Virus record (IMG/VR): IMGVR_UViG_3300025401_000648
Reading direction: 5' to 3' (one strand)
Length of the DNA stretch: 64,000 bases
Origin: a virus
Lineage: Duplodnaviria > Caudoviricetes
A program made the translations under genes and the position numbers. Each line of letters begins with the position of its first letter. Position 1 is the stretch's first letter. This document shows positions 14,924 through 63,708 of the stretch, piece after piece. Below the pieces are notes generated by a model. It had not been told where the DNA came from and searched no databases. It saw only the letters and a list, made by a program, of their open reading frames with translations.

Positions 14924-14957
14924 TTTTCATTAAATAATAGGATACCAGGACACTAAA

Positions 14958-16526: not shown

Positions 16527-16531
16527 ACACA

Positions 16532-16569
16532 TAAATACACTATCAATTTGTATGATAGGTACCTAAATA
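16532..16569 (+). promoter_or_regulatory. Late promoter cores plus short hairpin upstream of 16570 gene
   Basis: TAAATA 16532-16537, CTATCA/TGATAG stem 16540-16558 overlapping AGGT, second TAAATA 16564-16569. Confidence 0.5.
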
Positions 16570-18417
16570 ATGACTAATAGACCAGATCTAACCAGCTTAC
16601 CCGTTTTAACCAATCCCACGACAGCGACTACCTTGTTCATTGTTCAAGACGGCGGTGTAGATGAAACTATTACAGTCTCGCAAGTAGCAACTCTAGTAAA
16701 TGCTCAAGGTTCACCTGGTCCGCAAGGGCCTAGCGGTCCAATTGGATATACTGGTAGTCTTGGTCCACAGGGACCAATCGGGTATAGTGGTAGCATGGGT
16801 CCATCAGGACTGGGCTATACAGGCAGTCAAGGTTCAGGCTATACAGGGTCAGCCAGTACAGTTCCAGGCTATACAGGCAGTATTGGGGGACTGGGCTATA
16901 CCGGTTCAGTGGGTTATACTGGATCAGTTGGCGCGGCCAGTGCTATTGGTTTTTCTGGATCAGTAGGATCTCAAGGTCCAAGAGGTTATGATGGCAGCGT
17001 GGGCTACACTGGTAGTGCTAGTTCAATTAGCGGACCTACTGGTTATTCTGGAAGCGTAGGATACACAGGCAGTCAAGGTTACGCTGGTTCAGCTAGTACA
17101 CAAACAGGATTTAGTGGCAGTATAGGTTTCAGTGGCAGTATAGGATACACAGGTAGTGTAGGCTACACTGGTTCAGCAGGTGTTCAAGGGCCTACAGGAT
17201 ACAGTGGAAGTTTTGGTTACACTGGCAGTATAGGATACACCGGAAGTCGTGGTCCAATTGGATATGCTGGTAGTATTGGTCCACAAGGTTATACTGGTAG
17301 TGTTGGCGATTTGGGTTATTCAGGTAGTGTTGGCCCACAAGGATATACTGGTAGTTTAGGTGATTTAGGATATACTGGTAGCATTGGCTATACAGGGTCG
17401 GTAGGCTATACAGGCTCGGCAAGCACAGCTCCAGGATATACAGGAAGCATAGGATATAGTGGGTCAGCAAGCAGTGTTAGCGGACCATTAGGCTATACCG
17501 GTAGTTTAGGCTATACCGGTAGTCAAGGCGTTATTGGGTATTCTGGTAGTATTGGAACTAACGGTTACGCAGGATCTTTAGGTATCAATGGATATGATGG
17601 CAGTATTGGGCCCATTGGCTATTCAGGTAGTTTAGGCTACACAGGTTCAAAAAGTACTGTAAGTGGACCGTCTGGACCATTAGGGTATACCGGTAGTTTA
17701 GGTTACACAGGTAGTGCTAGTACGGTGTCAGGTCCATTGGGCTATACAGGATCGGCTAGTACAGTTAGTGGTCCGTCTGGTTCAATAGGATATACAGGTA
17801 GTCAAGGCTACGATGGTTCAATAGGAGTCAGAGGTATTGCTGGCCCAACAGGTCCACAGGGACCATTTGGTTATACCGGTAGTGTTGGTTTAGGCGCTAC
17901 AGGCTATTCAGGCAGCGTAGGCGGGTTAGGCTATAGCGGCAGTATTGGCTATGCTGGATCAGTAGGTCCGGTAGCAGGCACTGATAGAGAAATTATATAC
18001 AATTATTCAGGTGCTGCAACAGGTACTAATAGTTTAACATGGGACTATAATAATAATATTCTTTATGTAAATGGCAGTATAAATGCCACAGGTGATATCA
18101 CAGCATTCTATGCGGCGCCCTCTGACATTAGATTAAAAACCAATATTACAAATATTAGCAATGGTTTGGCCAAGGTATTAGAATTAAACGGTATTACTTA
18201 TAATTGGAATGATTTGGCTGCCACTATTGGCAAAGACAGTCAGGAAACTGAGGCAGGGGTTATTGCTCAAGAAGTACAACGAGTATTACCAGAAGTGGTA
18301 GTAGTTCGTGAAGATGGATACTTGACCGTTCGATATGAAAAACTAGTGCCATTATTAATAGAAGCTATTAAAGAACTCAGTGCCGAGCTTGAAATAATTA
18401 AGAAAAAATTGCCATGA
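16570..18417 (+). CDS. Collagen-like fibre protein with C-terminal peptidase S74 intramolecular chaperone
   Basis: Gly-X-Y repeats; SDIRLKTNI...GVIAQEVQRVLPEVV...VRYEKLVPLLIEAIKEL is the S74 autocleaving chaperone signature. Confidence 0.88.
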   Translation: MTNRPDLTSLPVLTNPTTATTLFIVQDGGVDETITVSQVATLVNAQGSPGPQGPSGPIGYTGSLGPQGPIGYSGSMGPSGLGYTGSQGSGYTGSASTVPGYTGSIGGLGYTGSVGYTGSVGAASAIGFSGSVGSQGPRGYDGSVGYTGSASSISGPTGYSGSVGYTGSQGYAGSASTQTGFSGSIGFSGSIGYTGSVGYTGSAGVQGPTGYSGSFGYTGSIGYTGSRGPIGYAGSIGPQGYTGSVGDLGYSGSVGPQGYTGSLGDLGYTGSIGYTGSVGYTGSASTAPGYTGSIGYSGSASSVSGPLGYTGSLGYTGSQGVIGYSGSIGTNGYAGSLGINGYDGSIGPIGYSGSLGYTGSKSTVSGPSGPLGYTGSLGYTGSASTVSGPLGYTGSASTVSGPSGSIGYTGSQGYDGSIGVRGIAGPTGPQGPFGYTGSVGLGATGYSGSVGGLGYSGSIGYAGSVGPVAGTDREIIYNYSGAATGTNSLTWDYNNNILYVNGSINATGDITAFYAAPSDIRLKTNITNISNGLAKVLELNGITYNWNDLAATIGKDSQETEAGVIAQEVQRVLPEVVVVREDGYLTVRYEKLVPLLIEAIKELSAELEIIKKKLP

Positions 18418-31728: not shown

Positions 31729-33993
31729 ATGTTAGAACCCAGCAAGGACCTAGAAAAGATTTTTGAGAAGGCAGTATCTGAAGCCTCTGAAAGACATCAT
31801 GAATATATTACCATAGAACATATATTACATAGTATGGTCCAAAATGAATCATTTGTTAATATTCTAAAGGCATTTGGTGCCGATGTGGATACATTAAAAC
31901 AAGATATTACAAACTACGTTGACAATGAGTTAACAGAGCTAGTCAACGAGCAAGCAATTAAGCCTAGAAAAACAAATACTGTTGATAGGATGCTACATCG
32001 TTCTTTTAAAAATGTAATGATGAACAAGCGTCAAATTATTGAACCAGTTGATTGCTTTATCAGTATGCTAGATGAAAAGAAAAGTTTCGCAAACTTTTTT
32101 ATTCAAAAAGCAAAAATAGATAAAGATAAATTTATTACTTTCTTAAACAAAGAATCAATCATCGAGGAAGAAGAAGCCAACGCAGAACATGCGGATCGAT
32201 TGGAAAGAATGATTATACAATTCTGCTTAAATTTAAGTGCCCGTGCTAAGGCCAAAAAGATTGATCCAGTGATTGGTCGAGAAAAAGAGATTGAAGAAAT
32301 CCAATTAGTGTTAGCCCGACGAACCAAGGCCAATGCTATCTTGATTGGAGATCCAGGCGTAGGTAAAACTGCTATCGCTGAAGGACTAGCCCGTAAAATA
32401 CATGAAGGCAAGGTTCCTAAATTTATTCAAAATCATGTGGTCTATAGTTTAGATATCAGTGCCATGCTGGCTGGTAGTAAGTACCGTGGCGATTTTGAAG
32501 AAAGACTAAAAACTGTCATCAATGCTCTTGAAAAGAAAGGCAACTGTATTTTGTTCATTGACGAAGCACACATGATGAGTGGTGCTGGAGCAAGTAGTAG
32601 CGGCAGTAATGATATGGCCAATATGCTTAAATCAGCATTGGGCAAAGGCGGCATTAAGGTTATTGCTAGTACTACCTGGGATGAATATAGAAAGTATTTT
32701 GAAAAGGACCGGGCTTTAATGCGTCGATTCCAACGTGTTACTATCGATGAACCAGATGAAGACACTGCCATTAAAATTATCAAAGGTCTTAGAAAGTATT
32801 ACGAAAAACATCACGGTGTTAAAATTACCAACCAGGCTGTAATTGATTCCGTCAAGTATTCTGTCAAATATATCAGTGATAAAAAATTACCTGATAAGGC
32901 TATTGATCTGATTGACTGTGCCTGTGCTAGATTCAAGATACGTGATGAAGAAAATGGTGTTGTTGATCATGCTGAGATATTATTTGAAATCAGCAAAATT
33001 TCTAATTTGCCACTGGAGCAAATTACTAATAAAGAAACTGCCAACATGGCCAATTTAGAAAAGAACATGAAGGCCAAAGTTTACGGACAAGAAAAGGCCA
33101 TTGAAAGTCTATTGGATAAAGTCTTTATTGCTCAGGCAGGTCTCAAATCATTAAACAAACCTGTAGGCACGTTCCTATTTGTTGGACCAACTGGTGTAGG
33201 TAAGACCGAAGCCGCTAAACAACTTGCCAGCAACCTAGGAGTCAAACTTGTTCGTTTTGATATGAGTGAATATCAGGAACAACATAGTGTATCTAAATTT
33301 ATTGGGGCTCCTCCAGGATATGTTGGTTTTGAAGATAATGCTGGCCAACTTATCACACAGCTACAGGAAAATCCTAATTGTGTGTTGTTGTTAGATGAAG
33401 TAGAAAAAGCTCACCCCAGTGTGCTTACTGTGTTACTACAGTTAATGGACAATGGGTTTATCACAGGCAGTAATGGTAAGAAGGCCGACGGTCGCAATGC
33501 TATTATTATTATGACCAGTAACCTGGGTGCTAGTGATGCTGAAAAGAATTCAGTAGGATTTGGTAGTTTAGAACGTGATGGTGATCCTAAAGATGCTGTC
33601 AACAAATTCTTTGCTCCAGAGTTCCGCAATCGCCTAGATGGTATCATCCGCTTTGGCAAGTTGGATCACGCTACTATGATTATGATTGTTAAGAAGTTTA
33701 TTGACGAGCTTAACCAATTGGTTGGTGATAAAAACATATTTGTCAAACCTACGGAGCTAGCATTAGACTATCTAGTGAACAAGGGATTTGATAGCAAAAT
33801 GGGTGCTCGTCCGTTACAGCGTACTATCGACGATATGATTAAACGCCCATTAAGTAAAGAAATATTGTTTGGCCGGTTAACCAATGGTGGTATTGTTGAA
33901 ATTGATATTGTCGATGACAAAATAATATTAAACTTTATTGATCCATTACCTATTCCAGATAAGCCTGTTGTAGATAGCGCTGAAACTATCTAA
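31729..33993 (+). CDS. clpA: ClpA-like AAA+ chaperone
   Basis: N-domain HEYITIEH; GDPGVGKT/LFIDEAH; GPTGVGKT/LLDEVEK; SVGF loop; FAPEFRNRLD; GARPL. Confidence 0.92.
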   Translation: MLEPSKDLEKIFEKAVSEASERHHEYITIEHILHSMVQNESFVNILKAFGADVDTLKQDITNYVDNELTELVNEQAIKPRKTNTVDRMLHRSFKNVMMNKRQIIEPVDCFISMLDEKKSFANFFIQKAKIDKDKFITFLNKESIIEEEEANAEHADRLERMIIQFCLNLSARAKAKKIDPVIGREKEIEEIQLVLARRTKANAILIGDPGVGKTAIAEGLARKIHEGKVPKFIQNHVVYSLDISAMLAGSKYRGDFEERLKTVINALEKKGNCILFIDEAHMMSGAGASSSGSNDMANMLKSALGKGGIKVIASTTWDEYRKYFEKDRALMRRFQRVTIDEPDEDTAIKIIKGLRKYYEKHHGVKITNQAVIDSVKYSVKYISDKKLPDKAIDLIDCACARFKIRDEENGVVDHAEILFEISKISNLPLEQITNKETANMANLEKNMKAKVYGQEKAIESLLDKVFIAQAGLKSLNKPVGTFLFVGPTGVGKTEAAKQLASNLGVKLVRFDMSEYQEQHSVSKFIGAPPGYVGFEDNAGQLITQLQENPNCVLLLDEVEKAHPSVLTVLLQLMDNGFITGSNGKKADGRNAIIIMTSNLGASDAEKNSVGFGSLERDGDPKDAVNKFFAPEFRNRLDGIIRFGKLDHATMIMIVKKFIDELNQLVGDKNIFVKPTELALDYLVNKGFDSKMGARPLQRTIDDMIKRPLSKEILFGRLTNGGIVEIDIVDDKIILNFIDPLPIPDKPVVDSAETI

Positions 33994-34447: not shown

Positions 34448-34520
34448 ATTTCTATTTGGTAAAAGTTGAATAAATAGTTTATATGTTGAGCTACGGCCAA
34501 CAATTTTAAAGTAGACTACT

Positions 34521-34896: not shown

Positions 34897-37800
34897 ATGT
34901 TTCTAAGAGATATTTTTAAACGTATAGTTGTTGAAGGTGGCAATTTAGAATTACCTAATCCTCAAAACGCCAACGAACCACATCGTGCTGATGAAATAGA
35001 TCTACAGGTTCACAACCGTAGTTTTATAGTTCCAATATTAGATAAACTATTAAAAGACATCAACAATTCATTTAAGGCCAAATATAAAACTCCTATTTGG
35101 AGTCAAGACCTTTTGACCAGCAAACAATTTTTAGGCGGCAGTAGTTTACATTTCTTCAATACCAAAGGCATCAACGATCAACAATTTACTGCCAAGAAGC
35201 CCAAGGTAGGTGATATCGATACGCAGTGCAATAAAGAACAAGAAGAACAAATAAAAGAATTTTTAACTGTTTATACAAATAAACAAATTGGTGACACAAC
35301 GTTATTGGGATTTAGCGCAGGCAATGAACAATTCAATGCCCTGTTTCAATTCCAAGATCCGCCAATGAAAATACAGGTTGATTTTGAGTTTGGCCGATAT
35401 AATCCAGAAACAAACACACCAGATGAGTGGTTTAGATTCAGTCATAATAGTGAATGGAATGATATTGATGCCGGTATCAAGGGAGTGTTCCACAAATATC
35501 TTTATAGATCTTTAAGTGGTATATCGTCACGTAGAGCATATATTGCCAAACTGGCAGGACGTGGTAAAGCACGTGCCATACAAATTTCTGATGAACCAGA
35601 AGAAGTTAACTTAATCTCTTTTGCTGTGGCAAGCAAACAAGGTGGTGGTGTTAGTCAAAAATATAAACCCTATATTGATCCAAATACCAATAAGCCCATG
35701 GTGAAAGATAATTTACCAGTATTGGAGCCAGTAGCGCCTGCTGATAGACAATATGAACAAAGATTAAGCAAACAATTTGAAATGTTTTTTGGCCGTGTTC
35801 CTACTCCTGAAGATTCTAAACTACAACAAAGTTTTTTAGGCACATTAGACTTAATTAACAGATATGTTGAAAATTCTAAAAAGGCAGGAATAGTTGAAGA
35901 TTTCTTAGATATTTGTTTTGAACAAGGTAGTCAAATGATTACCCGAGACGATCCTAAACGTGATGCTGAAACTAAATTTATAGCCATAGATGTAATGCTA
36001 GAAAAATTAGGCATGCGATCCATGCGCCCCAAGGCCATTGAAATGGCCAAGGCCTATGAGCAAGATTATAATGATGTCGAAGCATTTAAGAAAGCCAATC
36101 CAGGTGTATCACAACCACGTGCCGCGATGAAAAAAATGGCTGTTCGAGAAGCTGAAGGTGATGCCCCGGCAGTTAAAGCACAACTACGCAAAGGTATGCC
36201 TCACCTTCGTGATCTAAAACCTGCGGACTTTTTAGATCTAATCGATGAGTTACATGATGGCAATGGTAATTTTAAATTACAAAATATTCCATTAAATGTC
36301 AAAATAGATGGATTTGGTGGACGCTTTGGTAAAAACGCAGATGGTAAACCATTCATGGGCACTAGCCGTACTGAGCCACGTTACGAGCCAGGTTTTCTAA
36401 AGTATCATCAAGAAAAAGGCACAACTGATCCAGAAATATTGGGTCGCGCTCAATCTTTTGACAAGTTGTTTGATGAAATGATGAACGCTATTAAAGTAGT
36501 TGATAGTACTTTAGGTCCAGATTTTCTAAAAGATAGACAGGTCACCTGCGAGGTATTATTTTTACCATTTGCCACACAAACTGAAGAAGGCAAATTAAAA
36601 TTTGTAGGTATTGAATATGATCAACTGCCAAAAGGTGTTAATCTTGTGCTGGTACCTTTTCGCATTGTAGAAGGTAGTACAGGTGAGGACATACCTGACA
36701 GTGACAGAGTTATTCAAGAATTATCAAACTTAGGACAGAATGGTAGTGTGGCATTCATGAGCAACAGGCTGGTACAAAAACAAGGCTTGGATGTTACAGA
36801 AATTATCAACCCGTTAGACAACATTGAAGAATTAAAACAAATTGTCAGCGGAGCCGCAGGTAAACGAGACAAAGCCAGTTTACAACTGCGTAGAGAAGTT
36901 GAGGAAAAGTTAAAGCCTATACAAATAGCATTAGAAAAAGCCATTGATGAAGATCCTAACATTATTGGCAAAGACATGTTGGGGCAAGACTACGAGGGTA
37001 TTGTTATCAATAGTCGATTGGGACCAATCAAGGTCACAAGTCAACGCCAAAAAGATATTATCACCGCTAAGAATGCCGCTAAGAAAAATGCCCGTACAGA
37101 ACGCCCACGCAGTGAAAACAAAACAGCAGTAGTGGCCATTGGCAGTTTTGTTGGACATAAAGGCCATCAACAATTATTTGATTACACAATTAAGAAGGCC
37201 AAGGAATTGAATGGCGACCCGTATTTGTTTATGGGCAATGCTGTAGGAAAAGATGATCCAATTCCAGTCGCTGATAAAATTAAAACTTGGCAAATGCTGT
37301 ATCCACAATATGCCAACAATATCAGTGCTGTAACAATGGAAGGTGGAACACTCATGCAGAAAATCAAACATGAGTTAATCAATCCATTGCCAGGTAAACT
37401 GCCACGCTATGATAACATTATTATTATGGTTGGGGAAGATCAGGCCAAGATGCCAATAGCAGGCGCATTGATGAAAGCAGTTAATAAATTTCCAGGCTAT
37501 GAGAATGTCAAAGTTCATTTAGAAGTTACCCCGCGTGGAACTGGAATGAGTTTTACCAAATTACGTGATATTTTAAAAACAGGTAATCCTGATCAAGCAT
37601 TTCAATTATGGAATGATGCGTTTAACGGTGGTCAGTTTGGTGCCAAACAACTACCACCAGAATGGATACGACACCTAATGGATGTAACAAGGAACGGTAT
37701 GGGAATCAAAGAGCCACAAAAACAACAACCTGTTGCTGAACAGAGGTTGTTTAATTCGTTGTTGCGCCCACAAGTAAAGAAAGAAAAGCAAGGTGTGGCG

Positions 37801-38298
37801 GAGACTACAGGAGATAAACCGTTTGATAACATGATGAAAACTATTAAAACGGGTACAAAAAAACAAGCCACCGCAGATAGACGAGAACAAAAAAAGCAAG
37901 ATCAAGAAAGAACAAGAGCCGCTATTAGCAATATGTTTGGCAATAGTATGGATCACTTAAAAAATTTAAAAATTAAAGAGCGAAGTGTGGCAGAAAAGAT
38001 GATGCCTGCCGGTAATTTTTCTAGCACACCCAAAAACAAACTAGGCCCAGCAGGACAGCTAAAGGGCAAGATGAAGCGTCCAGCACGGGCAGGTGATCTA
38101 GTGGGTGGTGCTGAAGAAAGTTATGACGGCGGTAGTTATACCTCACACAAACCAGGATTTGGTGGACAAGGTAGATACACTGATTCTGTGAGAACACAGT
38201 TTAATATTGGTGAAAACAAACTAGTGCCTATTGGTGAAGATCTAGAATTAAAAATGGCCGAAGCTGTGTTAAAACTGATGGAAAATACCTTAAAATGA
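34897..38298 (+). CDS. Multidomain nucleotidyltransferase: pol-beta-type NTase + ligase-type (KxDG) NTase + HxGH cytidylyltransferase/NMNAT-like domain
   Basis: GGSS...GDIDT...QVD; KIDG...CEVLF...EGIVI...IKV; GSFVGHKGH; low-complexity C-tail with QGVAE. Confidence 0.7.
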   Translation: MFLRDIFKRIVVEGGNLELPNPQNANEPHRADEIDLQVHNRSFIVPILDKLLKDINNSFKAKYKTPIWSQDLLTSKQFLGGSSLHFFNTKGINDQQFTAKKPKVGDIDTQCNKEQEEQIKEFLTVYTNKQIGDTTLLGFSAGNEQFNALFQFQDPPMKIQVDFEFGRYNPETNTPDEWFRFSHNSEWNDIDAGIKGVFHKYLYRSLSGISSRRAYIAKLAGRGKARAIQISDEPEEVNLISFAVASKQGGGVSQKYKPYIDPNTNKPMVKDNLPVLEPVAPADRQYEQRLSKQFEMFFGRVPTPEDSKLQQSFLGTLDLINRYVENSKKAGIVEDFLDICFEQGSQMITRDDPKRDAETKFIAIDVMLEKLGMRSMRPKAIEMAKAYEQDYNDVEAFKKANPGVSQPRAAMKKMAVREAEGDAPAVKAQLRKGMPHLRDLKPADFLDLIDELHDGNGNFKLQNIPLNVKIDGFGGRFGKNADGKPFMGTSRTEPRYEPGFLKYHQEKGTTDPEILGRAQSFDKLFDEMMNAIKVVDSTLGPDFLKDRQVTCEVLFLPFATQTEEGKLKFVGIEYDQLPKGVNLVLVPFRIVEGSTGEDIPDSDRVIQELSNLGQNGSVAFMSNRLVQKQGLDVTEIINPLDNIEELKQIVSGAAGKRDKASLQLRREVEEKLKPIQIALEKAIDEDPNIIGKDMLGQDYEGIVINSRLGPIKVTSQRQKDIITAKNAAKKNARTERPRSENKTAVVAIGSFVGHKGHQQLFDYTIKKAKELNGDPYLFMGNAVGKDDPIPVADKIKTWQMLYPQYANNISAVTMEGGTLMQKIKHELINPLPGKLPRYDNIIIMVGEDQAKMPIAGALMKAVNKFPGYENVKVHLEVTPRGTGMSFTKLRDILKTGNPDQAFQLWNDAFNGGQFGAKQLPPEWIRHLMDVTRNGMGIKEPQKQQPVAEQRLFNSLLRPQVKKEKQGVAETTGDKPFDNMMKTIKTGTKKQATADRREQKKQDQERTRAAISNMFGNSMDHLKNLKIKERSVAEKMMPAGNFSSTPKNKLGPAGQLKGKMKRPARAGDLVGGAEESYDGGSYTSHKPGFGGQGRYTDSVRTQFNIGENKLVPIGEDLELKMAEAVLKLMENTLK

Positions 38299-38606
38299 AG
38301 CAATTTAGGATTACTTCAGAAAATAGCCAACCCATAGACAGTAGTGAAGATTGTGTACTACCTCCAGACGACTATGCTCACGAGCTAAAGCGTTTACAGT
38401 ATTTGGGCGGTTTAGGTGGAGAGGCAAGGCTTCAAGAATACCGTGCTCATCAAAATGCGGTAAATAAAGGAAGCAATGTCAGTGTTACAGGTACTGAAAA
38501 GGCTCAACTGATGAAGCAGAATAATATTAAACCAGGAACTCCAGAATGGTTTCAACTTTGGTTTAGTAGACCGTATCTAACACATGAGAAACCAGTAGGA
38601 AAATAA
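38295..38606 (+). CDS. Hypothetical protein
   Basis: 103 aa, ATGA overlap. Confidence 0.75.
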   Translation: MKQFRITSENSQPIDSSEDCVLPPDDYAHELKRLQYLGGLGGEARLQEYRAHQNAVNKGSNVSVTGTEKAQLMKQNNIKPGTPEWFQLWFSRPYLTHEKPVGK

Positions 38607-38607
38607 T

Positions 38608-38973
38608 ATGAGAGCAAAAGAATTTATCCGTGAATCATTAGGGTCACAAAACATGGCCAAGGATCAAGTGACTAGTATTCCTAATGCTCACTATTTTCCT
38701 GATTTGGATAACAGTAGTGGTTATGAAGCATATCGTTGGGGTGTGGCTTTGGCAGGTATGCCAGATTACCCAATGCCGCAAGATGGCACTACAGGACAAA
38801 AATTAGTTACAATTGGCTATACTGAAGCAGATGATTTAATTATAGACAGCACCAGTAAATTATTTGGTGCTAGAAAAGTAAGATTGACCCCACGCGGTAG
38901 TACAGAGTTGAAAGACACAAACAAAACTAGCCCCGTGGCTAATTGGATGGGAAAAGAGAAAAACAATGACTAA
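38608..38973 (+). CDS. Hypothetical protein with CTS-like N-terminus (MRAKEFIRES)
   Basis: Resembles T4 internal-protein capsid-targeting sequence MKTYQEFIAE. Confidence 0.7.
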   Translation: MRAKEFIRESLGSQNMAKDQVTSIPNAHYFPDLDNSSGYEAYRWGVALAGMPDYPMPQDGTTGQKLVTIGYTEADDLIIDSTSKLFGARKVRLTPRGSTELKDTNKTSPVANWMGKEKNND

Positions 38974-41287
38974 CGAATTTAAAAAAATCTCCAAGGGTAC
39001 AGAAACCCGTTATATTCTAGAAAGCGAAACTGCTGGTGCCACTGGCAGTGGATCTATTGCCACTGTGCCAGGTGGTATGGGTGGTGTTCGTAAACGTGGC
39101 GGAAACTTGTTAGCTCAGGAAGGCAATAAAGAAAAAGTTCCTGCTACTAAGCCAAGAAACTTTGTGGCCAAGAATGCCAAGATGGGCGGTGCTGGCGCAC
39201 ACAAGGATAAGAAGAAGGCTGAGAAGCAGGGTGATGTAAAACATCGTAAACCATTTGCCGAACAAGGTGTGGCGGAAGGCTCCGGAGGCAATTGGTATAT
39301 TCGGGTCAACGGTAAAATCCTCAATGACACCAAGTATAAGCCAGAGATTTTCTCATCTGAGGACGAGGCAAGAAGTCACGCAATGAAACTTGCTGATAAG
39401 AAACGCATACCGTTGTCACAAATTAAATTAACAAAAAGTTGGATGGATGCTCCTGAGCAAGGTGTGGCGGAAGGCAGTATATCTGACTTATTGAATAAAG
39501 ATTCAGCATCACCAAAATTCAATGACCATCCAGCACCACTCAAAACAAAACATTCTGGTAGCATTCCAACGCCCTACGAAAAAGGTAGATTAGATGCTCA
39601 TAGAAAAAAGCCATATAACAATATCCACAAAGACAAGCAAGATGCGGAAGATTATAAAACTGGTTATGGGCACGTTAAATCTAAGCAAGGTGTGGCGGAA
39701 GGCTCGGGAAAGAATGTAGTCAAGTCAGTCAAGGTAGGAAACTTTAGACACGATTTGGTCAATACTGGAATGGGTTGGCAGGTTCGTATCTATAACGGTG
39801 ATGAACTTTATGATACTGGGTTGAGCAAGAACTCTGAAGAAAAAGGTTTAGCCGCATTGGATAACTCAGTGGCATACACTAAAAAGCAACTAAACATTAA
39901 AGAGCAAGGTGTGGCGGAAGGCGCTCCAGAACTATTGAAGAAAGAAATGCCACTACATCGTCATGCTGAAAAATTATTAGCACAAAATGGCGTCAGTAAA
40001 GATGATCCAGATTATCGCCATCATCTTGGTAACACGATAAAACATCTTCGTCAGTTTGGTAATATTGATTTGATTAACAAGAGTGACGAGCAAGGTGTGG
40101 CGGAAGAGTGGAGTCAAAAATATAAATCTAGTATCAACTGCTCACATCCAAAAGGTTTCTCACAAAAGGCTCACTGTGCAGGCAAGAAAAAGCACACGGA
40201 AAGTATGATGACAATGGAAGCAGTATGTCCTGATTGTGGTATGTGCCAAACACACGGCAACTTGAATGAGATCAAGAAAGGTGCTAAAGACAGTAATGGA
40301 TTTACCAAATGCTGGCCTGGACATCATGCGGCAGGTACTAAGAAAGGTAAGAACGGTGGACAAGTTCGTAACTGTGTGCCTAATGAAAGTTTGTCAGAAG
40401 GTTGGGGTATGGGCGGTTATGAAACTGCCAAGGTACAGCCAATTGAACCAGGCAAAGGCATTGATAAAGAAATAGGTGAAAATCCAGATTGGTACAATGA
40501 CGAAGCAAATAGCATGAGCACTGCTCAACTAAAGAGTTTGGTCAAACATGCTACTAAGCTCCGCCATGCTGTCAAACAAATGCAAGCACAAGGCGATACA
40601 TTAGAACCTTGGCAACAAAGCAAAGTTACCAAAGCCGCAGATTATTTAGATGCTGTATTCAATGCTGTAGATGACGAACATGACATGGACGAAGAGGAAG
40701 GAGCAGGCGGAATGTTAAGCCCTATATCAGAAGCTCCAATTGATATGGATCCGTCCGAACCAATGAATCCAATGATATACGGACATCAAGGTGTTAATCC
40801 TGCTAAACTAAAAGATCGAATGATGAGGGCCGCTGGTCAATTAAAAGATCTAGCACAAAGAGCAGAATCAGGAAGTGCGTTAGGCTGGGAAAGTATCACT
40901 CGTCACTTTGAAGAATTGGCAATGAACATTGAACAAATACGTCATGCTTTAGAAGAGCTGGCTAACAAACGTAAGAAAGGTGGCATTGGTTCAAGAGGTA
41001 TTGATCCACACATTGGCGAAAGTGATCATCCTGATGAAAAAGAAGATAAAGCACTTATTCGTAAAATGGTCAAGGCACAAGCATTGAAACAAGAAGACAG
41101 TTATATGGCTGAGCTACAGGCCAAACTAGCTGAAAAGATTCCCAAGAATGCTCCTGTAGATGTTTATATCAAAGATTTTGAAAAATCCAATGCTCCACAG
41201 TTCCGTGGTAAGACAAAGGAAAAACGTCGTCAAATGGCCATTGCCGCCAGTTACGGTGCTAAAAATCCTAGCAAGAAGAAAAAATGA
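38966..41287 (+). CDS. Modular polyprotein, probable internal head protein
   Basis: 773 aa; five QGVAE linkers separating unrelated ~60-70 aa modules, followed by basic Cys/Lys-rich modules. Confidence 0.75.
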   Translation: MTNEFKKISKGTETRYILESETAGATGSGSIATVPGGMGGVRKRGGNLLAQEGNKEKVPATKPRNFVAKNAKMGGAGAHKDKKKAEKQGDVKHRKPFAEQGVAEGSGGNWYIRVNGKILNDTKYKPEIFSSEDEARSHAMKLADKKRIPLSQIKLTKSWMDAPEQGVAEGSISDLLNKDSASPKFNDHPAPLKTKHSGSIPTPYEKGRLDAHRKKPYNNIHKDKQDAEDYKTGYGHVKSKQGVAEGSGKNVVKSVKVGNFRHDLVNTGMGWQVRIYNGDELYDTGLSKNSEEKGLAALDNSVAYTKKQLNIKEQGVAEGAPELLKKEMPLHRHAEKLLAQNGVSKDDPDYRHHLGNTIKHLRQFGNIDLINKSDEQGVAEEWSQKYKSSINCSHPKGFSQKAHCAGKKKHTESMMTMEAVCPDCGMCQTHGNLNEIKKGAKDSNGFTKCWPGHHAAGTKKGKNGGQVRNCVPNESLSEGWGMGGYETAKVQPIEPGKGIDKEIGENPDWYNDEANSMSTAQLKSLVKHATKLRHAVKQMQAQGDTLEPWQQSKVTKAADYLDAVFNAVDDEHDMDEEEGAGGMLSPISEAPIDMDPSEPMNPMIYGHQGVNPAKLKDRMMRAAGQLKDLAQRAESGSALGWESITRHFEELAMNIEQIRHALEELANKRKKGGIGSRGIDPHIGESDHPDEKEDKALIRKMVKAQALKQEDSYMAELQAKLAEKIPKNAPVDVYIKDFEKSNAPQFRGKTKEKRRQMAIAASYGAKNPSKKKK

Positions 41288-41568
41288 AAATTGTAGAGTT
41301 GATCAATGAGAGTGATGACAATTGGGATGAGTTATCTCAAAAAGTATCAAAAAAATCAGCTGATCAAGCAATCAAACATCTTCAAAAGGATTTAAAAGAT
41401 CCTATTGGATATGAAGCAGTGGACCATATGATGACCAGTATAGCTAAAAAATACAATATGACTCCTCATGACCTACATTTATTATTTGTAGAAAAAGTTG
41501 GCACTACACCAGATGTTTGGATTAGAAAAATCGGTCCAAGTTTAGACAAGTGGATTAACAAAAAATGA
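41284..41568 (+). CDS. Hypothetical protein with CTS-like N-terminus (MKIVELINES)
   Basis: ATGA overlap; KKYNMTPHDLHLLFVEK..TPDVWI domain homologous to next gene. Confidence 0.7.
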   Translation: MKIVELINESDDNWDELSQKVSKKSADQAIKHLQKDLKDPIGYEAVDHMMTSIAKKYNMTPHDLHLLFVEKVGTTPDVWIRKIGPSLDKWINKK

Positions 41569-42002
41569 AAATCCGTGAACTAGTTGAGGCTATGAAGCCG
41601 GAACATGTGTCAGGTAAGGAAAAACCTGGTGCCGTAGATGCATTAGAAAAAAGATTATTGGCTGCTAAAAAATCTGGTACAAAATTCAACTACGACGTCA
41701 TTGATCAAATGATGCAAAAAATCTGTAGAGAATTTAATCTCACAGGCGATAAACTTCATAATGATTTTGTAAAGAAACATAATCTTGTTCCAGACAATTG
41801 GATTAAGAAAGATCTTAACGTAGAAGAAAACTTTGCTGATGGTAAGCATCCAGGACGTAAAGGATTAGCCAAACGCAGTGGTGTAAATACAAAAGCCAGT
41901 GTTAGTAGCCTACGCAAAACTGCCAAACACAGCACAGGTGAAAAACAACGTATGGCACATTGGTTGGCCAATATGAAAGCAGGGAGAGCCAAGAAAAAAT
42001 GA
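41565..42002 (+). CDS. Hypothetical protein with CTS-like N-terminus (MKIRELVEA)
   Basis: REFNLTGDKLHNDFVKKH..VPDNWI domain plus basic C-terminal module after NVEEN. Confidence 0.7.
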   Translation: MKIRELVEAMKPEHVSGKEKPGAVDALEKRLLAAKKSGTKFNYDVIDQMMQKICREFNLTGDKLHNDFVKKHNLVPDNWIKKDLNVEENFADGKHPGRKGLAKRSGVNTKASVSSLRKTAKHSTGEKQRMAHWLANMKAGRAKKK

Positions 42003-42418
42003 GAGCATCAGAATTCATAATTGAAACAGCCGCTTGGCAAAAATCATCAGGTAAAAATAAAAATGGTGGTTTAAACAAAAAAGGTGTGGCCAGTTATCGT
42101 AGAGAGCATCCTGGATCAAAATTACAAACTGCTGTGACCACTAAGCCCAGCAAGTTGAAAAAAGGTAGCAAAGCCAGTAAACGTCGAGCAAGTTTTTGTG
42201 CTCGTATGAAAGGTATGAAAAAACATCGTACAGGAGCCTCCACCAAGAGAGATCCAAACAGTCGCATAAACAAAAGTCTACGCAAGTGGCATTGTGAAAG
42301 TGTTGAGCAATTATACGGCGTGTTACAAGCATTGAGAGAAGCAGCCAATCCAGCACAGCAGGCTGCTATTGCTATCAATATGAAGAAGAATCATAAAAAG
42401 CCTAAGAATACAAAATAA
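41999..42418 (+). CDS. Basic hypothetical protein with CTS-like N-terminus (MRASEFIIET)
   Basis: Start moved to ATG 41999 (ATGA overlap); GGLNKKG...RRASFCARM...SLRKWHC module. Confidence 0.7.
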   Translation: MRASEFIIETAAWQKSSGKNKNGGLNKKGVASYRREHPGSKLQTAVTTKPSKLKKGSKASKRRASFCARMKGMKKHRTGASTKRDPNSRINKSLRKWHCESVEQLYGVLQALREAANPAQQAAIAINMKKNHKKPKNTK

Positions 42419-42422
42419 AAAT

Positions 42423-42752
42423 ATGTCAAATAACTATAATTGGATTATTTCAAAATTAGATTGTATTCCCAATGCCAATGGTTTGGAAAATGTGATTCAA
42501 TCAATACATTGGAGATTTGGTGGTACTGACGGCACTAACTATGCCGATGTATTTGGGGAAGTTATACTGGATAGTCCGGATCCTGATTCATTCATATTAT
42601 ATAAAGATTTGAGTGAAGAGCAAATTATAAACTGGATCACCGCATCATTAGGTGAAGAAGCAATAATATCTTTTAAGAAAACAATAGATGCCAAAATTTC
42701 CGCAATAGTCAACCCACCCGTGGTAAATCCTGCGTTTCCTTGGGTTATTTAA
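42423..42752 (+). CDS. Hypothetical protein, possibly fibre-associated
   Basis: YNWIISKLDC...IHWRF...LPW-like end; 109 aa. Confidence 0.6.
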   Translation: MSNNYNWIISKLDCIPNANGLENVIQSIHWRFGGTDGTNYADVFGEVILDSPDPDSFILYKDLSEEQIINWITASLGEEAIISFKKTIDAKISAIVNPPVVNPAFPWVI

Positions 42753-43501: not shown

Positions 43502-43523
43502 AACCCGCTTAGGCGGGTTTTTT
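43502..43523 (+). terminator. Intrinsic terminator between convergent genes
   Basis: AACCCGC-TTAG-GCGGGTT followed by TTTT. Confidence 0.85.
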
Positions 43524-44583
43524 ATTGACTTTTGTAGTCTCGGTATCGTTGTCCGGACACTTCGCCTGAGAATAATTTTTTAACATATTCCAGACCTTTG
43601 GTCAATGCGTCTCTATCTTTGACAGCGCGGGCTTGACTGGCATCTGTACTAGCCTTGTCACGTTTGGGCGCAGTGATAGCATGTTGCGATTTTTCTACAT
43701 AGTGATTGGCAAATTGATTAATAAAGTCATCGGCAGAACTGAATCGTTCCAAATCACCCTTACCAAACATTCCATTTAATTCACAGCTACGAGCAAACCC
43801 CTTAACACCATTAACCAAACGTTCTACATTAACATTCATTGTGTCAACACCAGGATTGGCCTTTAGTAGTGGATCAATCTTGGGATTTTCTATTCCAAGT
43901 TCTTCTGCCTCATGTAGGAATATGTCTAATACCCAGCGTTTGATATCTTGCCCTACTGTGTGTAGGTTGTAATTCTTAAGCGTCTTGCCATAATTAACTT
44001 TTTTTCCATTTACAGTTTTGTATTGGATGCCCTTGTGCTGCAGGTTAACTGGAATCAATTCGCTCATTGTGGCAAAGATATTACCGTTTAGTAAACCTTT
44101 TAATCCATGTTCTCCTGTGGCACGATAACGGCCCCATTCGGCAGTCTTTTCTGGATGCGGCATAATATCTACTTGTACCTTACTACCATCACCCAATATG
44201 AACATGGGCTGTGCTCCTCGACTTTCAGCTTTATCAATATAGGATAAATTTGAATCTTGAATAAATTTATTGATTAATGTGCCCCAGCGACCCTGAACTT
44301 GCCCACTGGTCATATCATCATATTCTGGTAAATCTGGAATAATAACCTGTAGATCCATGTCACCATATATGGTGTTTTCTGGATCATCGAGTTCATGATA
44401 AGCGGCGGATCCTGTGGGATGACCAACTTTCATAGGTCCAAGCCCCTGTTGTTTTAACCAAGGATTGAAATCTTTAAGGAAATTATCTACTGCAACAATT
44501 CCCTGTTTTACCACTTTGGCTTTGATGCCAGGATTATCTCCGGTGGTCCACCCGCCTTCAACAATTAATTCTCTAATTTTCAT
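43522..44583 (-). CDS. Pol-beta superfamily nucleotidyltransferase with CTS-like N-terminus (MKIRELIVEGG)
   Basis: PTGS...YGDMDLQV...VQVDI catalytic pattern; TAAATA late core 7 nt before ATG 44583. Confidence 0.7.
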   Translation of the reverse strand: MKIRELIVEGGWTTGDNPGIKAKVVKQGIVAVDNFLKDFNPWLKQQGLGPMKVGHPTGSAAYHELDDPENTIYGDMDLQVIIPDLPEYDDMTSGQVQGRWGTLINKFIQDSNLSYIDKAESRGAQPMFILGDGSKVQVDIMPHPEKTAEWGRYRATGEHGLKGLLNGNIFATMSELIPVNLQHKGIQYKTVNGKKVNYGKTLKNYNLHTVGQDIKRWVLDIFLHEAEELGIENPKIDPLLKANPGVDTMNVNVERLVNGVKGFARSCELNGMFGKGDLERFSSADDFINQFANHYVEKSQHAITAPKRDKASTDASQARAVKDRDALTKGLEYVKKLFSGEVSGQRYRDYKSQ

Positions 44584-44606
44584 AGTAAAGTATTTATTCA
44601 AAACAG

Positions 44607-62454: not shown

Positions 62455-63708
62455 ATGTCAAACACTACAGCAAACAAAAAATTTAAACTTCCTGAAAAGC
62501 GGGAATTCACACAATCAGAAAAAAACAAGATTGTTGAAAAACTAATCACTGCTCGTGTGGGCTTGTTATTGCGCCATCCATTTTTTGGTAATATGGCCAC
62601 ACGTTTGAAATTGGTTGATGCTAGTGATTGGTGTAGCACACTGGCCACAGATGGTCGTACATTTTATTACAGCAACGATTTTGTAAACATGCTGACTCCA
62701 AAACAGTGCGAGTTTGGCTTCGCTCACGAAGTTCTACATAATGTGTTTGATCACTTGAGCCGACGTGAAAATCGAGATAGAAACCTCAGTAACATTGCCG
62801 CAGACTATGCTGTTAATCAAATCTTAAAAGATGAACGCATCGGTGAAGTTCCTAGCATGATTCAAATTTTCCAAGATAACAAATATCGAGGAATGAGCTA
62901 TGAACAAATTTATGACGATTTGGAACAAAAAGCTATCAAAATCAATATCAATGATCTAGGCGAGTTGCTCGACGATCACTTGGATGGCGACGATGAAGGC
63001 GGTGGTGGAGACGGCGAGCAAGTTGACGGAAATGGTAAAGGCCGTCCTAAACTTACCGCAGAAGAAAAGAAACAGATTCGAGACGAAATTAAAGAAGCTA
63101 TGGTTGCAGCCGCACAGGCCGCAGGAGCAGGACGTGTACCAGCTGGCGTGTCAAGAATGATTCAAATCTTTACAGAGCCAAAAATGGACTGGCGCCAAAT
63201 GTTGCGTATGAATATCCAAAGTATTCTAAAAAGCAACTTCAGTTTCAGCCGTCCAAATCGTAAAAGTCAACATTGCGGTGCTGTACTTCCAGGTATGATG
63301 AACGAAGAAACCATTGATGTCAGTGTAGCAATTGACATGTCAGGTAGTATTAGTGATAAAATGGCCATGGACTTCCTAAGCGAAGTCAAAGGTATCATGG
63401 AAGAATACAAAGACTTTAAGTTAGATTTGTTCTGCTTTGATACCGAAGTGTATAACTACGCACAATTTACTGGCGATAACGCAGATGATATCATGAGCTA
63501 CGAATGCAAAGGTGGCGGTGGCACCGACTTTGATGCCTGCTATAACTTTATGAAAGAAAATAGTATTGAGCCAAAGCGGTTCATTATGTTTACAGACGGA
63601 TATCCATGCGGTAGCTGGGGCGATGAGAATTATTGCGATACGCTGTTCATTGTACATGGCAACGATAGCATTGAAGCTCCATTTGGGCAAACTGCCCATT
63701 ATAAATAA
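62455..63708 (+). CDS. Metallopeptidase-like (HExxH) plus vWA domain protein, MoxR partner
   Basis: TLATDG, AHEVLH, NIAADYAVN; vWA MIDAS AIDMSGS, GGGTDF, MFTDG. Confidence 0.85.
   Translation: MSNTTANKKFKLPEKREFTQSEKNKIVEKLITARVGLLLRHPFFGNMATRLKLVDASDWCSTLATDGRTFYYSNDFVNMLTPKQCEFGFAHEVLHNVFDHLSRRENRDRNLSNIAADYAVNQILKDERIGEVPSMIQIFQDNKYRGMSYEQIYDDLEQKAIKININDLGELLDDHLDGDDEGGGGDGEQVDGNGKGRPKLTAEEKKQIRDEIKEAMVAAAQAAGAGRVPAGVSRMIQIFTEPKMDWRQMLRMNIQSILKSNFSFSRPNRKSQHCGAVLPGMMNEETIDVSVAIDMSGSISDKMAMDFLSEVKGIMEEYKDFKLDLFCFDTEVYNYAQFTGDNADDIMSYECKGGGGTDFDACYNFMKENSIEPKRFIMFTDGYPCGSWGDENYCDTLFIVHGNDSIEAPFGQTAHYK

What the first reader, a model, noticed from the sequence alone, without database searches (positions are those of the whole stretch)
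39263..40106. In-frame cassette array: unrelated ~60-70 aa modules separated by a nucleotide-identical repeat coding QGVAEG
Seen: CAAGGTGTGGCGGAAGGC is identical at 39263, 39458, 39686 and 39905, and 16 nt of it recur at 40091. Spacings are 195, 228, 219 and 186 nt, all multiples of 3, and the intervening modules share no visible similarity. A 14-nt copy also sits in the tail of the 1133-aa gene (37789). All six copies use the same G-ending codons GTG GCG, which is unexpected in this AT-rich genome if only the peptide were conserved. Known: T4 prohead protease gp21 cuts after Glu in short hydrophobic-x-E motifs. Inference: the repeat may be both a recombination site that adds, drops or shuffles small domains in frame and a maturation-protease cut site. 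That would give an integron-like, variable polyprotein released as separate small proteins in the capsid and delivered on infection, for example as anti-defence effectors.
Basis: partly seen in the sequence, partly recalled or inferred. Interest (0 to 1): 0.88.

Follow-up and report, generated by a model that had tools for sequence, protein, structure and literature searches.

The report
Shuffled protein cassettes joined by fixed linker
A large freshwater T4-related phage strings small unrelated proteins into one 773-residue precursor, joined by a six-residue linker (QGVAEG) whose DNA is fixed even at silent positions; related phages swap single modules exactly at this linker, which also looks like a cutting site for the phage head protease.

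Summary
The 18-mer CAAGGTGTGGCGGAAGGC is exact at 39263, 39458, 39686 and 39905. A 16/18 copy lies at 40091 and a 14-nt copy at 37789. All are in frame, and the spacings are 195/228/219/186.

Comparative data support the cassette reading. In 47 related IMG/VR loci the junction codons are almost invariant (GTG 95%, GCG 92%; genome usage 15% and 8%), while module number, order and identity differ. Single cassettes are 94-99.6% identical between contigs whose flanks are about 70-80% identical. Half of all homology breakpoints fall on the junction (p about 1e-17).

The protease reading is indirect but coherent:
- Relatives encode a gp21-type protease.
- At decayed junctions Glu is kept far more than G, V or A.
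- The same module start is preceded by QGVAE, by T4-CTS-like 9-residue leaders, or by other L-x-E sites.
- AlphaFold puts every junction in a flexible linker.
- The leader resembles the capsid protein's maturation site.

Cleavage, packaging and any anti-defence role remain untested. No integrase or attC-like element was seen, so "integron-like" is only an analogy.

This scan has noted the same GVAE junction in several other genomes. I class it as a new variant of known kinds: T4 internal proteins plus motif-mediated shuffling.

The parts
34470..34476 (+). ATAAATA, a T4-late-promoter-like box heading a tightly packed operon (34521 to about 42752) that contains the polyprotein gene
   Evidence: 7 plus-strand copies in the window, mostly 25-50 nt upstream of ORF starts. 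Gene gaps in the operon are -8 to +4 nt.
34897..38298 (+). 1133-aa multi-enzyme protein (cytidyltransferase-like part) whose C-terminal tail is joined on by the same junction
   Evidence: phrog_19290, phrog_3041. KQGVAE at aa 969; window module 1 occurs in a cytidyltransferase-bearing homologue, P0046.
37789..37802 (+). Sixth junction copy (14 nt, QGVAE-T) in the tail of the 1133-aa gene
37981..37995 (+). Decayed junction copy (RSVAE), 3 nt away from the canonical core
   Evidence: family D6 (86% identity to 39891-39919); the same downstream module follows QGVAE in L012.
38608..38973 (+). 121-aa protein with a T4-CTS-like N-terminus, MRAKEFIRE|S
   Evidence: D4: its 5' end is similar at DNA level to the start of the DUF6321 gene. 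T4 CTS is MKTYQEFIAE (PMC8442874).
38966..41287 (+). 773-aa cassette polyprotein gene
38966..39277 (+). Conserved leader (aa 1-104). Aa 10-38 resemble the capsid protein gp23 around its predicted L-A-E|S maturation site. Aa 62-97 are DUF7230-like and basic.
   Evidence: leader conserved in relatives. (found in 99 of 120 homologues). (E 9e-6 and 2e-5 against gp23 of relatives)..
39263..39280 (+). Junction 1 (QGVAEG)
39278..39472 (+). Module 1 (aa 105-169, 7.3 kDa, pI 9.1), a confident beta-beta-alpha-beta fold
   Evidence: pLDDT 85-94. (10 homologues at other positions)..
39458..39475 (+). Junction 2
39473..39700 (+). Module 2 (aa 170-245, pI 9.4), predicted disordered
   Evidence: L027 is 99.6% identical over 39465-39707 only.
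39686..39703 (+). Junction 3
39701..39919 (+). Module 3 (aa 246-318, 8 kDa), four strands plus a helix, pLDDT 92-97
   Evidence: 94.6-98.7% identity in L001 and L028-L035, bounded by junctions 3 and 4; dN/dS 0.11.
39905..39922 (+). Junction 4
39920..40105 (+). Module 4 (aa 319-380, 7 kDa), three helices
   Evidence: L004-L007 are 92% identical over 39899-40106, at another position in their array; dN/dS 0.21.
40091..40108 (+). Junction 5 (QGVAEE, 16/18)
40106..40399 (+). Module 5 (aa 381-478, EWSQKYKS..NCVPNE, Cys-rich), nearly universal in the family and also found in cyanophage proteins
   Evidence: 97 of 120. (S-SM2, P-TIM68).
40400..41284 (+). C-terminal helical modules. They are also reshuffled among relatives, at x-x-E borders that lack the 18-mer.
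   Evidence: breakpoint clusters at 40387-40402 and 40472-40478..
41284..42002 (+). Two small genes (94 and 145 aa) with CTS-like starts, MKIVELINE|S and MKIRELVEA. Their modules lie inside long polyproteins in relatives.
   Evidence: L017
41999..42418 (+). DUF6321 protein starting MRASEFIIE|TAAW. The same module start follows QGVAE or L-x-E inside polyproteins of relatives.

Best explanation
ORF 38966..41287 encodes a precursor of capsid-internal cargo proteins in a large (probably over 300 kb) freshwater myovirus with T4-type head genes.

Proposed protein-level steps:
1. A conserved N-terminal leader, resembling the maturation site of the major capsid protein, takes the precursor into the prohead. 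This is inferred.
2. The gp21-type prohead protease cuts after Glu of each V-A-E in the flexible QGVAE|G linkers. This is inferred.
3. Cutting releases 7-10 kDa, mostly basic modules that stay with the DNA and probably enter the host. This is inferred and untested.

Proposed DNA-level steps:
1. The linker is a fixed word of about 15-21 nt (RAG-NAA-GGT-GTG-GCG-GAR-G) present at every junction and in at least two genes per genome.
2. It serves as a patch of micro-homology where the phage's general recombination machinery exchanges, inserts, deletes and reorders single modules in frame, between co-infecting relatives and between genes. The exchange pattern is shown by comparison; the enzymology is inferred.
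3. Each successful exchange carries the word along, and this keeps its silent positions uniform.

The result is a combinatorial, fast-turning set of small packaged proteins.
For: Shown:
- (1) Across 99 distinct junction contexts in loci found through peptides unrelated to the junction, codons are GGT 98%, GTG 95%, GCG 92% and GAA 83%. The preceding codon is NAA in 97% (Q, E or K) and the following codon starts with G in 90% (G, E, A, D or V). Neighbouring third positions reach at most 0.33-0.47.
- (2) Controls use ordinary codons: GVAE inside the conserved NHGRGVAE context uses GTT plus GCA/GCT/GCC. GTG-GCG makes up 91% of [QEK]GVAE but 19% of other xVAE.
- (3) Arrays differ among relatives: window 0-72-23-1-3-0, L004 0-3-4-2-1-5-0, L021 0-4-7-2-1-3-8-0, L030 6-24-1-11-25-26-0. 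In the best 120 of at least 1649 homologues, 220 internal modules fall into 121 families with varying neighbours.
- (4) Identity jumps at the junction. L027 is 99.6% identical over 39465-39707 only. Eight loci are 94.6-98.7% identical over 39683-39922 only, while their leader and C-terminal parts are 70-80% identical. 44 of 89 HSP ends lie within 8 nt of a junction, against 12% expected (p 9e-18).
- (5) In freshwater metagenome contigs, loose ends cluster at junction edges. Modules 3-4 have 3-40 times the summed contig depth of the flanks.
- (6) Modules are under purifying selection (dN/dS 0.11 and 0.21, with dS 0.18-0.24).
- (7) The exact 16-mer occurs in at least 120 further viral contigs: 165 of 175 copies are in long open frames read as GVAE, and 52 of 55 spacings are multiples of 3. 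In bacterial genomes it occurs only as single hits, at about the number I calculate for chance.

Supporting the protease step:
- Relatives carrying the same polyprotein family encode Peptidase_S77 (gp21), a scaffold protein and gp23 on the same contig.
- T4-type proteases cut after Glu in short motifs (PMC5694885, PMC9026906).
- At 465 module starts not preceded by GVAE, P1 is Glu in 66% (background 7%), whereas V, A and G are kept in only 26%, 20% and 13%.
- The DUF6321 module start is preceded by Glu in 19 of 19 contexts: four T4-CTS-like 9-residue leaders, one canonical KQGVAE, and others of the L-x-E type (T4 CTS is MKTYQEFIAE).
- One relative's array gene starts MKTLRDYINLIESNEQGVAE.
- All five junctions lie in pLDDT<50 linkers between confident domains.
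- The leader resembles gp23 around L-A-E|S.
- A late-promoter-like box heads the operon.
Against: - There is no direct evidence of cleavage, packaging or injection: no virion proteome, and no cultured relative carries the gene.
- The head genes lie outside this window. The protease is shown only in relatives.
- The gp23 cleavage site of this clade is predicted, not mapped. The HMMER alignment to mature T4 gp23 puts the T4-equivalent cut about 11 residues upstream.
- Breakpoints also cluster at borders that lack the 18-mer (40387-40402, 40472-40478). So survival of in-frame, domain-preserving recombinants contributes, and the word is not strictly required.
- 15-21 nt is short for efficient homologous recombination.
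- Metagenome joints at junctions have sides of only about 20 nt and cannot prove deletion variants.
- Module functions are unknown.
Confidence: 0.58

Rival explanations
1. Uncut beads-on-a-string protein. The product works as one multi-domain (polyvalent-type) protein. QGVAEG is only a flexible linker and the DNA word only a recombination patch. No proteolytic release occurs.
For: The AlphaFold model is a chain of small domains on flexible linkers. Polyvalent phage proteins with 2-15 domains are known, and some are packaged unprocessed (PMC5512222). There are no cleavage data.
Against: Glu is kept far better than the other linker residues when the junction decays. The same module start is served by T4-CTS-like leaders, which are protease substrates in T4. 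The same modules occur either fused or as separate small genes. This is easiest to explain if fusion makes no difference after cutting.
Confidence: 0.2
2. A dedicated sequence-specific factor recognises the 15-21-nt word as DNA or RNA. It could be a nicking or homing endonuclease, or a recombinase, that triggers exchange at each junction, or an RNA-level signal. On this view the word is conserved for that factor, not as passive micro-homology.
For: Conservation extends to positions that change the amino acid only within a nucleotide-defined set: NAA before the core and G-starting codons after it. The word is strand-specific. T4-type phages carry many homing endonucleases, and one HNH gene lies at 62455-63708.
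Against: No consistent RNA structure was found (z from -1.1 to +0.6). There is no antisense partner of 10 nt or more in the window and no Rfam match. No recombinase was identified next to the arrays. Cutting its own genome at six or more sites would need self-protection. Strand specificity follows trivially from the word being coding.
Confidence: 0.1
3. The word plays no role in exchange. Its uniformity reflects recent common descent, or selection for particular (partly rare) codons that slow translation between domains. Breakpoints at junctions arise because only recombinants joined in linkers survive.
For: GTG and GCG are rare codons. Breakpoints also cluster at borders without the word.
Against: Common codons are fixed as well (GGT 98% against 48% usage; NAA 97%). 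The word joins more than 100 unrelated module families, so descent alone cannot explain it. Module bodies have dS 0.18-0.24 while the word's silent sites stay unchanged.
Confidence: 0.1
4. Assembly artefact: the mosaics are chimeric metagenome contigs joined at a short repeat.
For: All data are metagenomic. Logan contigs break at or near junctions.
Against: Identical arrays were assembled independently in two to four metagenomes (L004-L007; L021, L023 and L024; L030 and L031; L038 and L039). An independent contig with 0 mismatches spans junctions 1-3 of the window (record 3). The 18-mer is shorter than usual final k-mers. Frames stay open throughout.
Confidence: 0.02

Closest known systems
T4 internal proteins (IPI, IPII, IPIII, Alt) with the capsid targeting sequence, processed by prohead protease gp21
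   Same: Both are small, mostly basic, non-structural proteins encoded in variable loci. They are targeted to the prohead by a short leader, cut after Glu by a T4-type protease and injected, and in T4 they act as anti-restriction factors (PMC9026906, PMC8442874, PMC3012670, PMC12373910). Neighbouring genes here start with CTS-like MRAKEFIRE, MRASEFIIE and MKIVELINE. Relatives encode gp21.
   Different: In T4 each IP is a separate gene with its own CTS and one cut. Here several unrelated modules are fused in frame and separated by a repeated internal site. That site is also conserved as DNA. The leader of the 773-aa protein resembles the capsid protein's maturation site rather than the T4 CTS. 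Cleavage and packaging are not shown here.
PeSL cassettes (promoter-early stem-loops) mediating modular shuffling in T4-type phages
   Same: A short conserved sequence flanks non-essential ORFs in hyperplastic regions. It serves as a recombination site for insertion, deletion and replacement, and has been compared with integrons. No dedicated recombinase is known (PMC2839356, PMC4122927).
   Different: PeSLs are intergenic regulatory elements (promoter plus terminator hairpin) that move whole genes. Here the word is coding, lacks a hairpin or promoter, lies inside an ORF and moves sub-gene protein modules in frame.
gp38 adhesin of T2/T6-type phages: glycine-rich motifs separating hypervariable segments
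   Same: Conserved in-frame motifs separate variable segments, and genetic exchanges occur within or near the conserved motifs (PMC3157838).
   Different: GRMs keep a fixed order and form the structural core of one domain, and the variable segments are loops. Here the segments are autonomous folded domains of unrelated sequence, with free number and order. The motif is a flexible linker.
Polyvalent proteins of phages and conjugative elements (Iyer et al. 2017)
   Same: These are long mosaic phage proteins made of many unrelated domains. They are predicted to be packaged and delivered, with proposed proteolytic release of domains (PMC5512222).
   Different: None of the polyvalent-protein signature domains was detected. 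Release there is proposed to be autoproteolytic, by a built-in metallopeptidase. No DNA-conserved junction is described.
Ejection proteins of phiKZ- and SPN3US-type giant phages, processed at S/A/G-x-E
   Same: Many head-internal proteins are cut after Glu at a short motif by a gp21-related protease, sometimes at several sites (PMC5694885).
   Different: Those are separate genes with propeptides, not arrays of exchangeable cassettes. No DNA-level junction conservation is reported.
Integron gene cassettes
   Same: Both are arrays of unrelated units separated by a recurring site, with variable number and order between relatives.
   Different: Integrons need an IntI tyrosine recombinase and folded attC sites, and they move whole promoterless genes. 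Here no attC-like structure exists, units are in-frame protein modules, and general recombination is the likely engine.

Membership tests
T4-type internal (capsid-targeted) proteins | N-terminal capsid targeting sequence of about 10 residues ending in hydrophobic-x-Glu | tested here: inconclusive
   Neighbouring genes and some arrays in relatives have T4-like leaders: MRASEFIIE, MRAKEFIRE and MKTLRDYINLIE, against T4 MKTYQEFIAE. The 773-aa protein itself starts MTNEFKK..RYILE|S, a different leader that resembles gp23.
T4-type internal (capsid-targeted) proteins | A gp21-type (Peptidase_S77) prohead protease in the same genome | tested here: met
   PF03420 scores 95 and 91 bits in G004 and G006, the contigs that also carry the polyprotein loci L005 and L003. 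The window itself does not contain the head genes.
T4-type internal (capsid-targeted) proteins | Cleavage after Glu, presence in the mature head, and ejection into the host | not testable with these tools
   There is no proteome and no cultured member. Only indirect support exists.
T4-type internal (capsid-targeted) proteins | Small, mostly basic mature products | tested here: met
   Predicted products are 7-10.7 kDa. Five of six have pI 8.2-10.3.
PeSL regulatory cassettes | Intergenic sigma70-like promoter plus a terminator stem-loop flanking an ORF | tested here: not met
   The word lies inside an ORF. No stable or shared hairpin was found (z from -1.1 to +0.6).
Integron | attC-type imperfect inverted repeats at cassette borders | tested here: not met
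   The junction is a direct repeat of about 18 nt without an inverted partner.
Integron | IntI tyrosine recombinase next to the array | not tested
   No integrase search was run. None of the ten ORFs around the array scanned against Pfam and PHROGs matched a recombinase.
Polyvalent proteins (Iyer et al. 2017) | Signature domains (for example MuF, ART, MPTase or large polyvalent-protein-associated domains) combined in one polypeptide | tested here: not met
   Pfam finds only DUF7230, DUF6321, DUF5872 and GP88 in this protein and nine large relatives.
gp38-type motif-mediated shuffling | Conserved in-frame motifs at which exchanges between relatives map | tested here: met
   44 of 89 homology ends lie within 8 nt of a junction (p 9e-18). 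Single-cassette identity islands are seen. There is no sequence homology to gp38, so this is a likeness of mechanism only.

The most novel reading that the evidence does not exclude
The junction word is the recognition site of a dedicated, still unidentified phage function: a nicking or homing-type endonuclease or recombinase, possibly acting through excised cassette circles. That would make this a true 'protein-domain integron'. It would be a programmed system that builds combinatorial libraries of capsid-delivered effectors in frame, with the same six residues doubling as the release site for the head protease.
Probability: 0.12. Interest if true: 0.92.

Novelty: new variant of a known kind. 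Interest (0 to 1): 0.8.

Why it matters
If the model holds, one short sequence is selected at two levels: as a protease site in the protein and as an exchange site in the DNA. This lets a large clade of uncultured lake phages assemble, reorder and trade small packaged proteins as in-frame cassettes.

It would extend the T4 internal-protein paradigm from single genes to combinatorial polyproteins. T4 internal proteins are the only such cargo with known function, and they are anti-restriction factors.

It would also point to a very large pool of unannotated 7-10 kDa modules: 121 families in only 120 proteins, from at least 1649 homologues. These modules are candidates for early-acting host-takeover or counter-defence factors. 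The design also suggests a natural way to load phage capsids with several foreign proteins.

Tried and rejected
- RNA structure at the junctions: five 58-nt windows fold no better than shuffles. Rejected.
- Antisense or guide partner: no complementary word of 10 nt or more in the window.
- Rfam: nothing relevant in 37500-42500.
- Tandem repeat or internal duplication of modules: none.
- Near-identical cultured phage: no megablast hit. tblastn finds only the EWSxKYK module in cyanophages.
- G001, the nearest held record, has no homologue.
- Fold searches of the whole AlphaFold model against BFVD and PDB gave no functional match. Hits to RNA-virus polyproteins only reflect the beads-on-a-string shape. 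The ESM Atlas gave only unnamed small viral proteins for module 3.
- Pfam on nine large relatives returned only DUFs and GP88.
- The metagenome 'joints' between junction copies have sides of about 20 nt, that is, only the repeat itself. I do not count them as deletion variants.
- The exact 16-mer in bacterial genomes gave single scattered hits in unrelated, mostly GC-rich taxa, about what I calculate chance would give in a 596-Gb collection. This offers no host clue.
- The canonical TATAAATA late promoter is not enriched. The shorter ATAAATA fits gene starts.
- The MAFFT alignment of fragments (A1) is noisy, so the AlphaFold model is used only for domain limits.
Full report
**Observation.** The 18-mer CAAGGTGTGGCGGAAGGC is exact at 39263, 39458, 39686 and 39905. 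It is 16/18 at 40091, and its first 14 nt recur at 37789. Chance gives 0.02 such matches per window. All copies are on the + strand. The five clustered copies lie in frame in ORF 38966..41287 (773 aa) as QGVAEG or QGVAEE, at spacings of 195, 228, 219 and 186 nt. The four enclosed modules are unrelated to each other. A decayed copy (RSVAE) lies at about 37981-37995.

**Setting.**
- The window comes from a myovirus with T4-type genes: a gp43-like DNA polymerase, baseplate and collagen-like fibre genes, and a ClpA-like ATPase.
- The polymerase is closest to jumbo phages: Phosso 52%, Atu_ph07 47%, and 350-380-kb coliphages 44%.
- A related 141-kb contig is rated 39% complete (or 18 tables), so the genome is probably over 300 kb.
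- The polyprotein gene sits in a tightly packed operon (gaps of -8 to +4 nt) behind an ATAAATA box at 34470.
- Its neighbours start with T4-CTS-like peptides (MRAKEFIRES, MKIVELINES, MRASEFIIET). The T4 CTS is MKTYQEFIAE (PMC8442874).
- Twenty-four freshwater metagenome runs hold the stretch.

**The junction is conserved as DNA.** A protein-based scan used peptides unrelated to the junction and returned 47 related IMG/VR loci. In 99 distinct junction contexts:
- Codons are GGT 98%, GTG 95%, GCG 92% and GAA 83%.
- The codon before is NAA in 97%. It encodes Q, E or K, so the amino acid varies while the two A's do not.
- The codon after starts with G in 90% (G, E, A, D or V).
- The codon two before is mostly RAG.
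- Third positions of flanking codons reach only 0.33-0.47.

Genome usage is GTG 15%, GCG 8% and GGT 48%. As an internal control, GVAE within the conserved NHGRGVAE context uses GTT plus GCA, GCT or GCC. GTG-GCG makes up 91% of [QEK]GVAE but 19% of other xVAE. Module bodies show dS 0.18-0.24, yet the word's silent sites do not change.

**Modules behave as exchangeable cassettes.**
- Arrays differ in number, order and content. The window is 0-72-23-1-3-0, L004-7 are 0-3-4-2-1-5-0, L021 is 0-4-7-2-1-3-8-0, L030 is 6-24-1-11-25-26-0 and L033 is 0-57-1-58-7-59. Family 3 lies before family 4 in one array and after family 1 in others.
- Identity islands are bounded by the word. L027 matches at 99.6% over 39465-39707 only. 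Eight loci match at 94.6-98.7% over 39683-39922 only. L004-7 match at 92% over 39899-40106, at another array position. Leaders and C-terminal parts are 70-86% identical.
- 44 of 89 distinct HSP ends in 39100-40500 lie within 8 nt of a junction, against 12% expected (p 9e-18).
- The large protein database holds at least 1649 homologues, all unnamed, from contigs up to 393 kb. In the best 120, GVAE occurs 331 times against 2.4 expected, with up to 10 per protein and a median spacing of 73 residues. Their 220 internal modules form 121 families with varying neighbours.
- Window module 1 occurs in a cytidyltransferase-bearing protein elsewhere (P0046). So cassettes also move between the two gene types that carry the word.
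165 of 175 copies are in long open frames read as GVAE, and 52 of 55 spacings are multiples of 3. In bacterial genomes it gives only single hits, about what I calculate for chance.
- In lake metagenome contigs, points of divergence from the window cluster at junction edges (39260/78, 39454/56, 39677-87, 39703/05, 39922, 40106/07). Modules 3-4 have 3-40 times the summed contig depth of their flanks. The cassettes therefore stand in more contigs, or more abundant ones, than this particular arrangement.
- Identical arrays re-assembled in two to four metagenomes argue against chimeras.

**Modules are real proteins.** dN/dS is 0.11 and 0.21 for the families of window modules 3 and 4. AlphaFold2 (mean pLDDT 64) gives confident compact folds for module 1 (aa 109-160), module 3 (aa 250-313; pLDDT 92-97) and module 4 (aa 322-373). 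Module 2 is disordered. The C-terminal part holds a zinc-ribbon-like hairpin and helical hairpins. All five junctions fall in pLDDT<50 linkers. The predicted products are 7-10.7 kDa and mostly basic. No family or fold gives a function.

**The protease reading.** This reading is inferred, not shown.
- Relatives that carry the polyprotein (L005 in G004, L003 in G006) encode Peptidase_S77 (gp21), a gp22-like scaffold protein and gp23 on the same contig.
- T4, phiKZ and SPN3US proteases all cut after Glu in three-residue motifs (PMC5694885; PMC9026906). V-A-E fits.
- Four new observations bear on this:
  - (a) Where a module that elsewhere follows GVAE is preceded by something else (465 cases), P1 is Glu in 66% (background 7%). 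V, A and G are retained in only 26%, 20% and 13%. Glu is therefore the residue under the strongest protein-level selection.
  - (b) The DUF6321 module start is preceded by Glu in all 19 distinct contexts. Four are 9-residue T4-CTS-like N-termini, including the window's own MRASEFIIE. One is a canonical KQGVAE inside a 1301-aa protein. The rest are L-x-E-type sites inside other proteins. The junction, the CTS and other x-x-E borders are therefore positionally interchangeable.
  - (c) One relative's array gene starts MKTLRDYINLIESNEQGVAE, a CTS-like leader fused directly to the junction.
  - (d) Residues 10-38 of the conserved leader resemble gp23 residues 32-60 of relatives, around the predicted L-A-E|S site (E 9e-6 and 2e-5). 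The exact gp23 cut in this clade is unmapped.
- Modules that are separate genes here (145-aa and 152-aa ORFs) lie inside a single 1089-aa ORF in L017. This is expected if fusion is undone after translation.

**Limits.**
- Cleavage, packaging and injection are not shown.
- Breakpoints also cluster at borders without the word (40387-40402, 40472-40478). Selection for in-frame, domain-preserving recombinants therefore contributes.
- 15-21 nt is short for homologous recombination.
- I found no RNA structure, antisense partner or Rfam family that would give the word another role. A dedicated DNA-recognising factor cannot be excluded.

**Comparison with known systems.** The system works like T4 internal proteins: a CTS, a gp21 cut, a variable locus and injected anti-restriction factors (PMC9026906, PMC12373910). 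Here, however, the units are fused in frame and separated by a repeated internal site. Its plasticity works like PeSL-mediated shuffling (PMC2839356) and like exchanges at the glycine-rich motifs of gp38 (PMC3157838). Here the conserved element is a coding linker between autonomous domains. It resembles polyvalent proteins (PMC5512222) in architecture but shares none of their signature domains. It is integron-like only by analogy.

**Earlier notes of this scan** describe the same GVAE junction in several other genomes, and a different linker (ESVNE) in another lake phage. They agree with this reading but are not independent evidence.

**Verdict.**
- The cassette-exchange role of the junction is well supported.
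- The protease-site role is plausible and now backed by several indirect lines.
- The effector role is open.
- I class it as a new variant of known kinds, of high interest.

Noticed in passing
window 38993-39079 (aa 10-38 of the polyprotein); L048 and L049 (gp23 of relatives): The conserved leader of the polyprotein family (..TRYILE|SETAGATGSGSIATV) resembles the major capsid protein around its predicted maturation site (..RHLAE|SATAGATSAGNVATL). Pairwise E values are 9e-6 and 2e-5. It may be a substrate or targeting mimic of gp23.
   Followed up: partly
window 34897-38298: A 1133-aa protein combines a phrog_19290 N-domain, a cytidyltransferase-like part and further parts. It ends in a tail attached through the same junction. 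Homologues carry other cassettes in that tail (P0046). The minus-strand gene 43522-44601 starts with a similar ..VEGG leader.
   Followed up: partly
window 31729-33993: A full-length ClpA/ClpB-like AAA+ ATPase (phrog_4871, 823 bits) lies directly upstream of the cargo operon in this phage.
   Followed up: no
window 34011, 34470, 16531, 25588, 60511, 63701 (+) and 44591 (-): ATAAATA boxes lie mostly 25-50 nt upstream of ORF starts and look like this phage's late promoters. The full T4 consensus TATAAATA is not enriched (2 found, 7.5 expected).
   Followed up: partly
L054 (Synechococcus phage S-SM2, SSM2_108) and L055 (Prochlorococcus phage P-TIM68, gene after the capsid gene): The EWSxKYKxSIxCxxPKGFSQKAHCAG module of the polyprotein occurs in cyanomyovirus proteins with CTS-like N-termini (MKTLKQFLKE.., MMKSFIDFSE..). 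In P-TIM68 the gene sits right after the major head protein gene.
   Followed up: partly
window 38600-38637, 41276-41309, 41557-41572, 41991-42028: The 5' ends of the small CTS-type genes are similar to each other at DNA level (71-94% over 16-38 nt, covering the overlapping stop/start and the leader codons). This recalls the conserved 5' ends reported for T-even internal protein genes.
   Followed up: no
window 10079-18417: Three long collagen-like (Gly-X-Y) tail-fibre genes have raised GC (0.43-0.48) and strong GC skew compared with the rest of the window (0.35-0.42).
   Followed up: no
window 39629-40114 in runs X1, X10 and X14: Modules 3 and 4 have 3-40 times the summed contig depth of the flanking parts of the same gene in lake metagenomes. 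These two cassettes stand in more contigs, or more abundant ones, than this particular array.
   Followed up: partly
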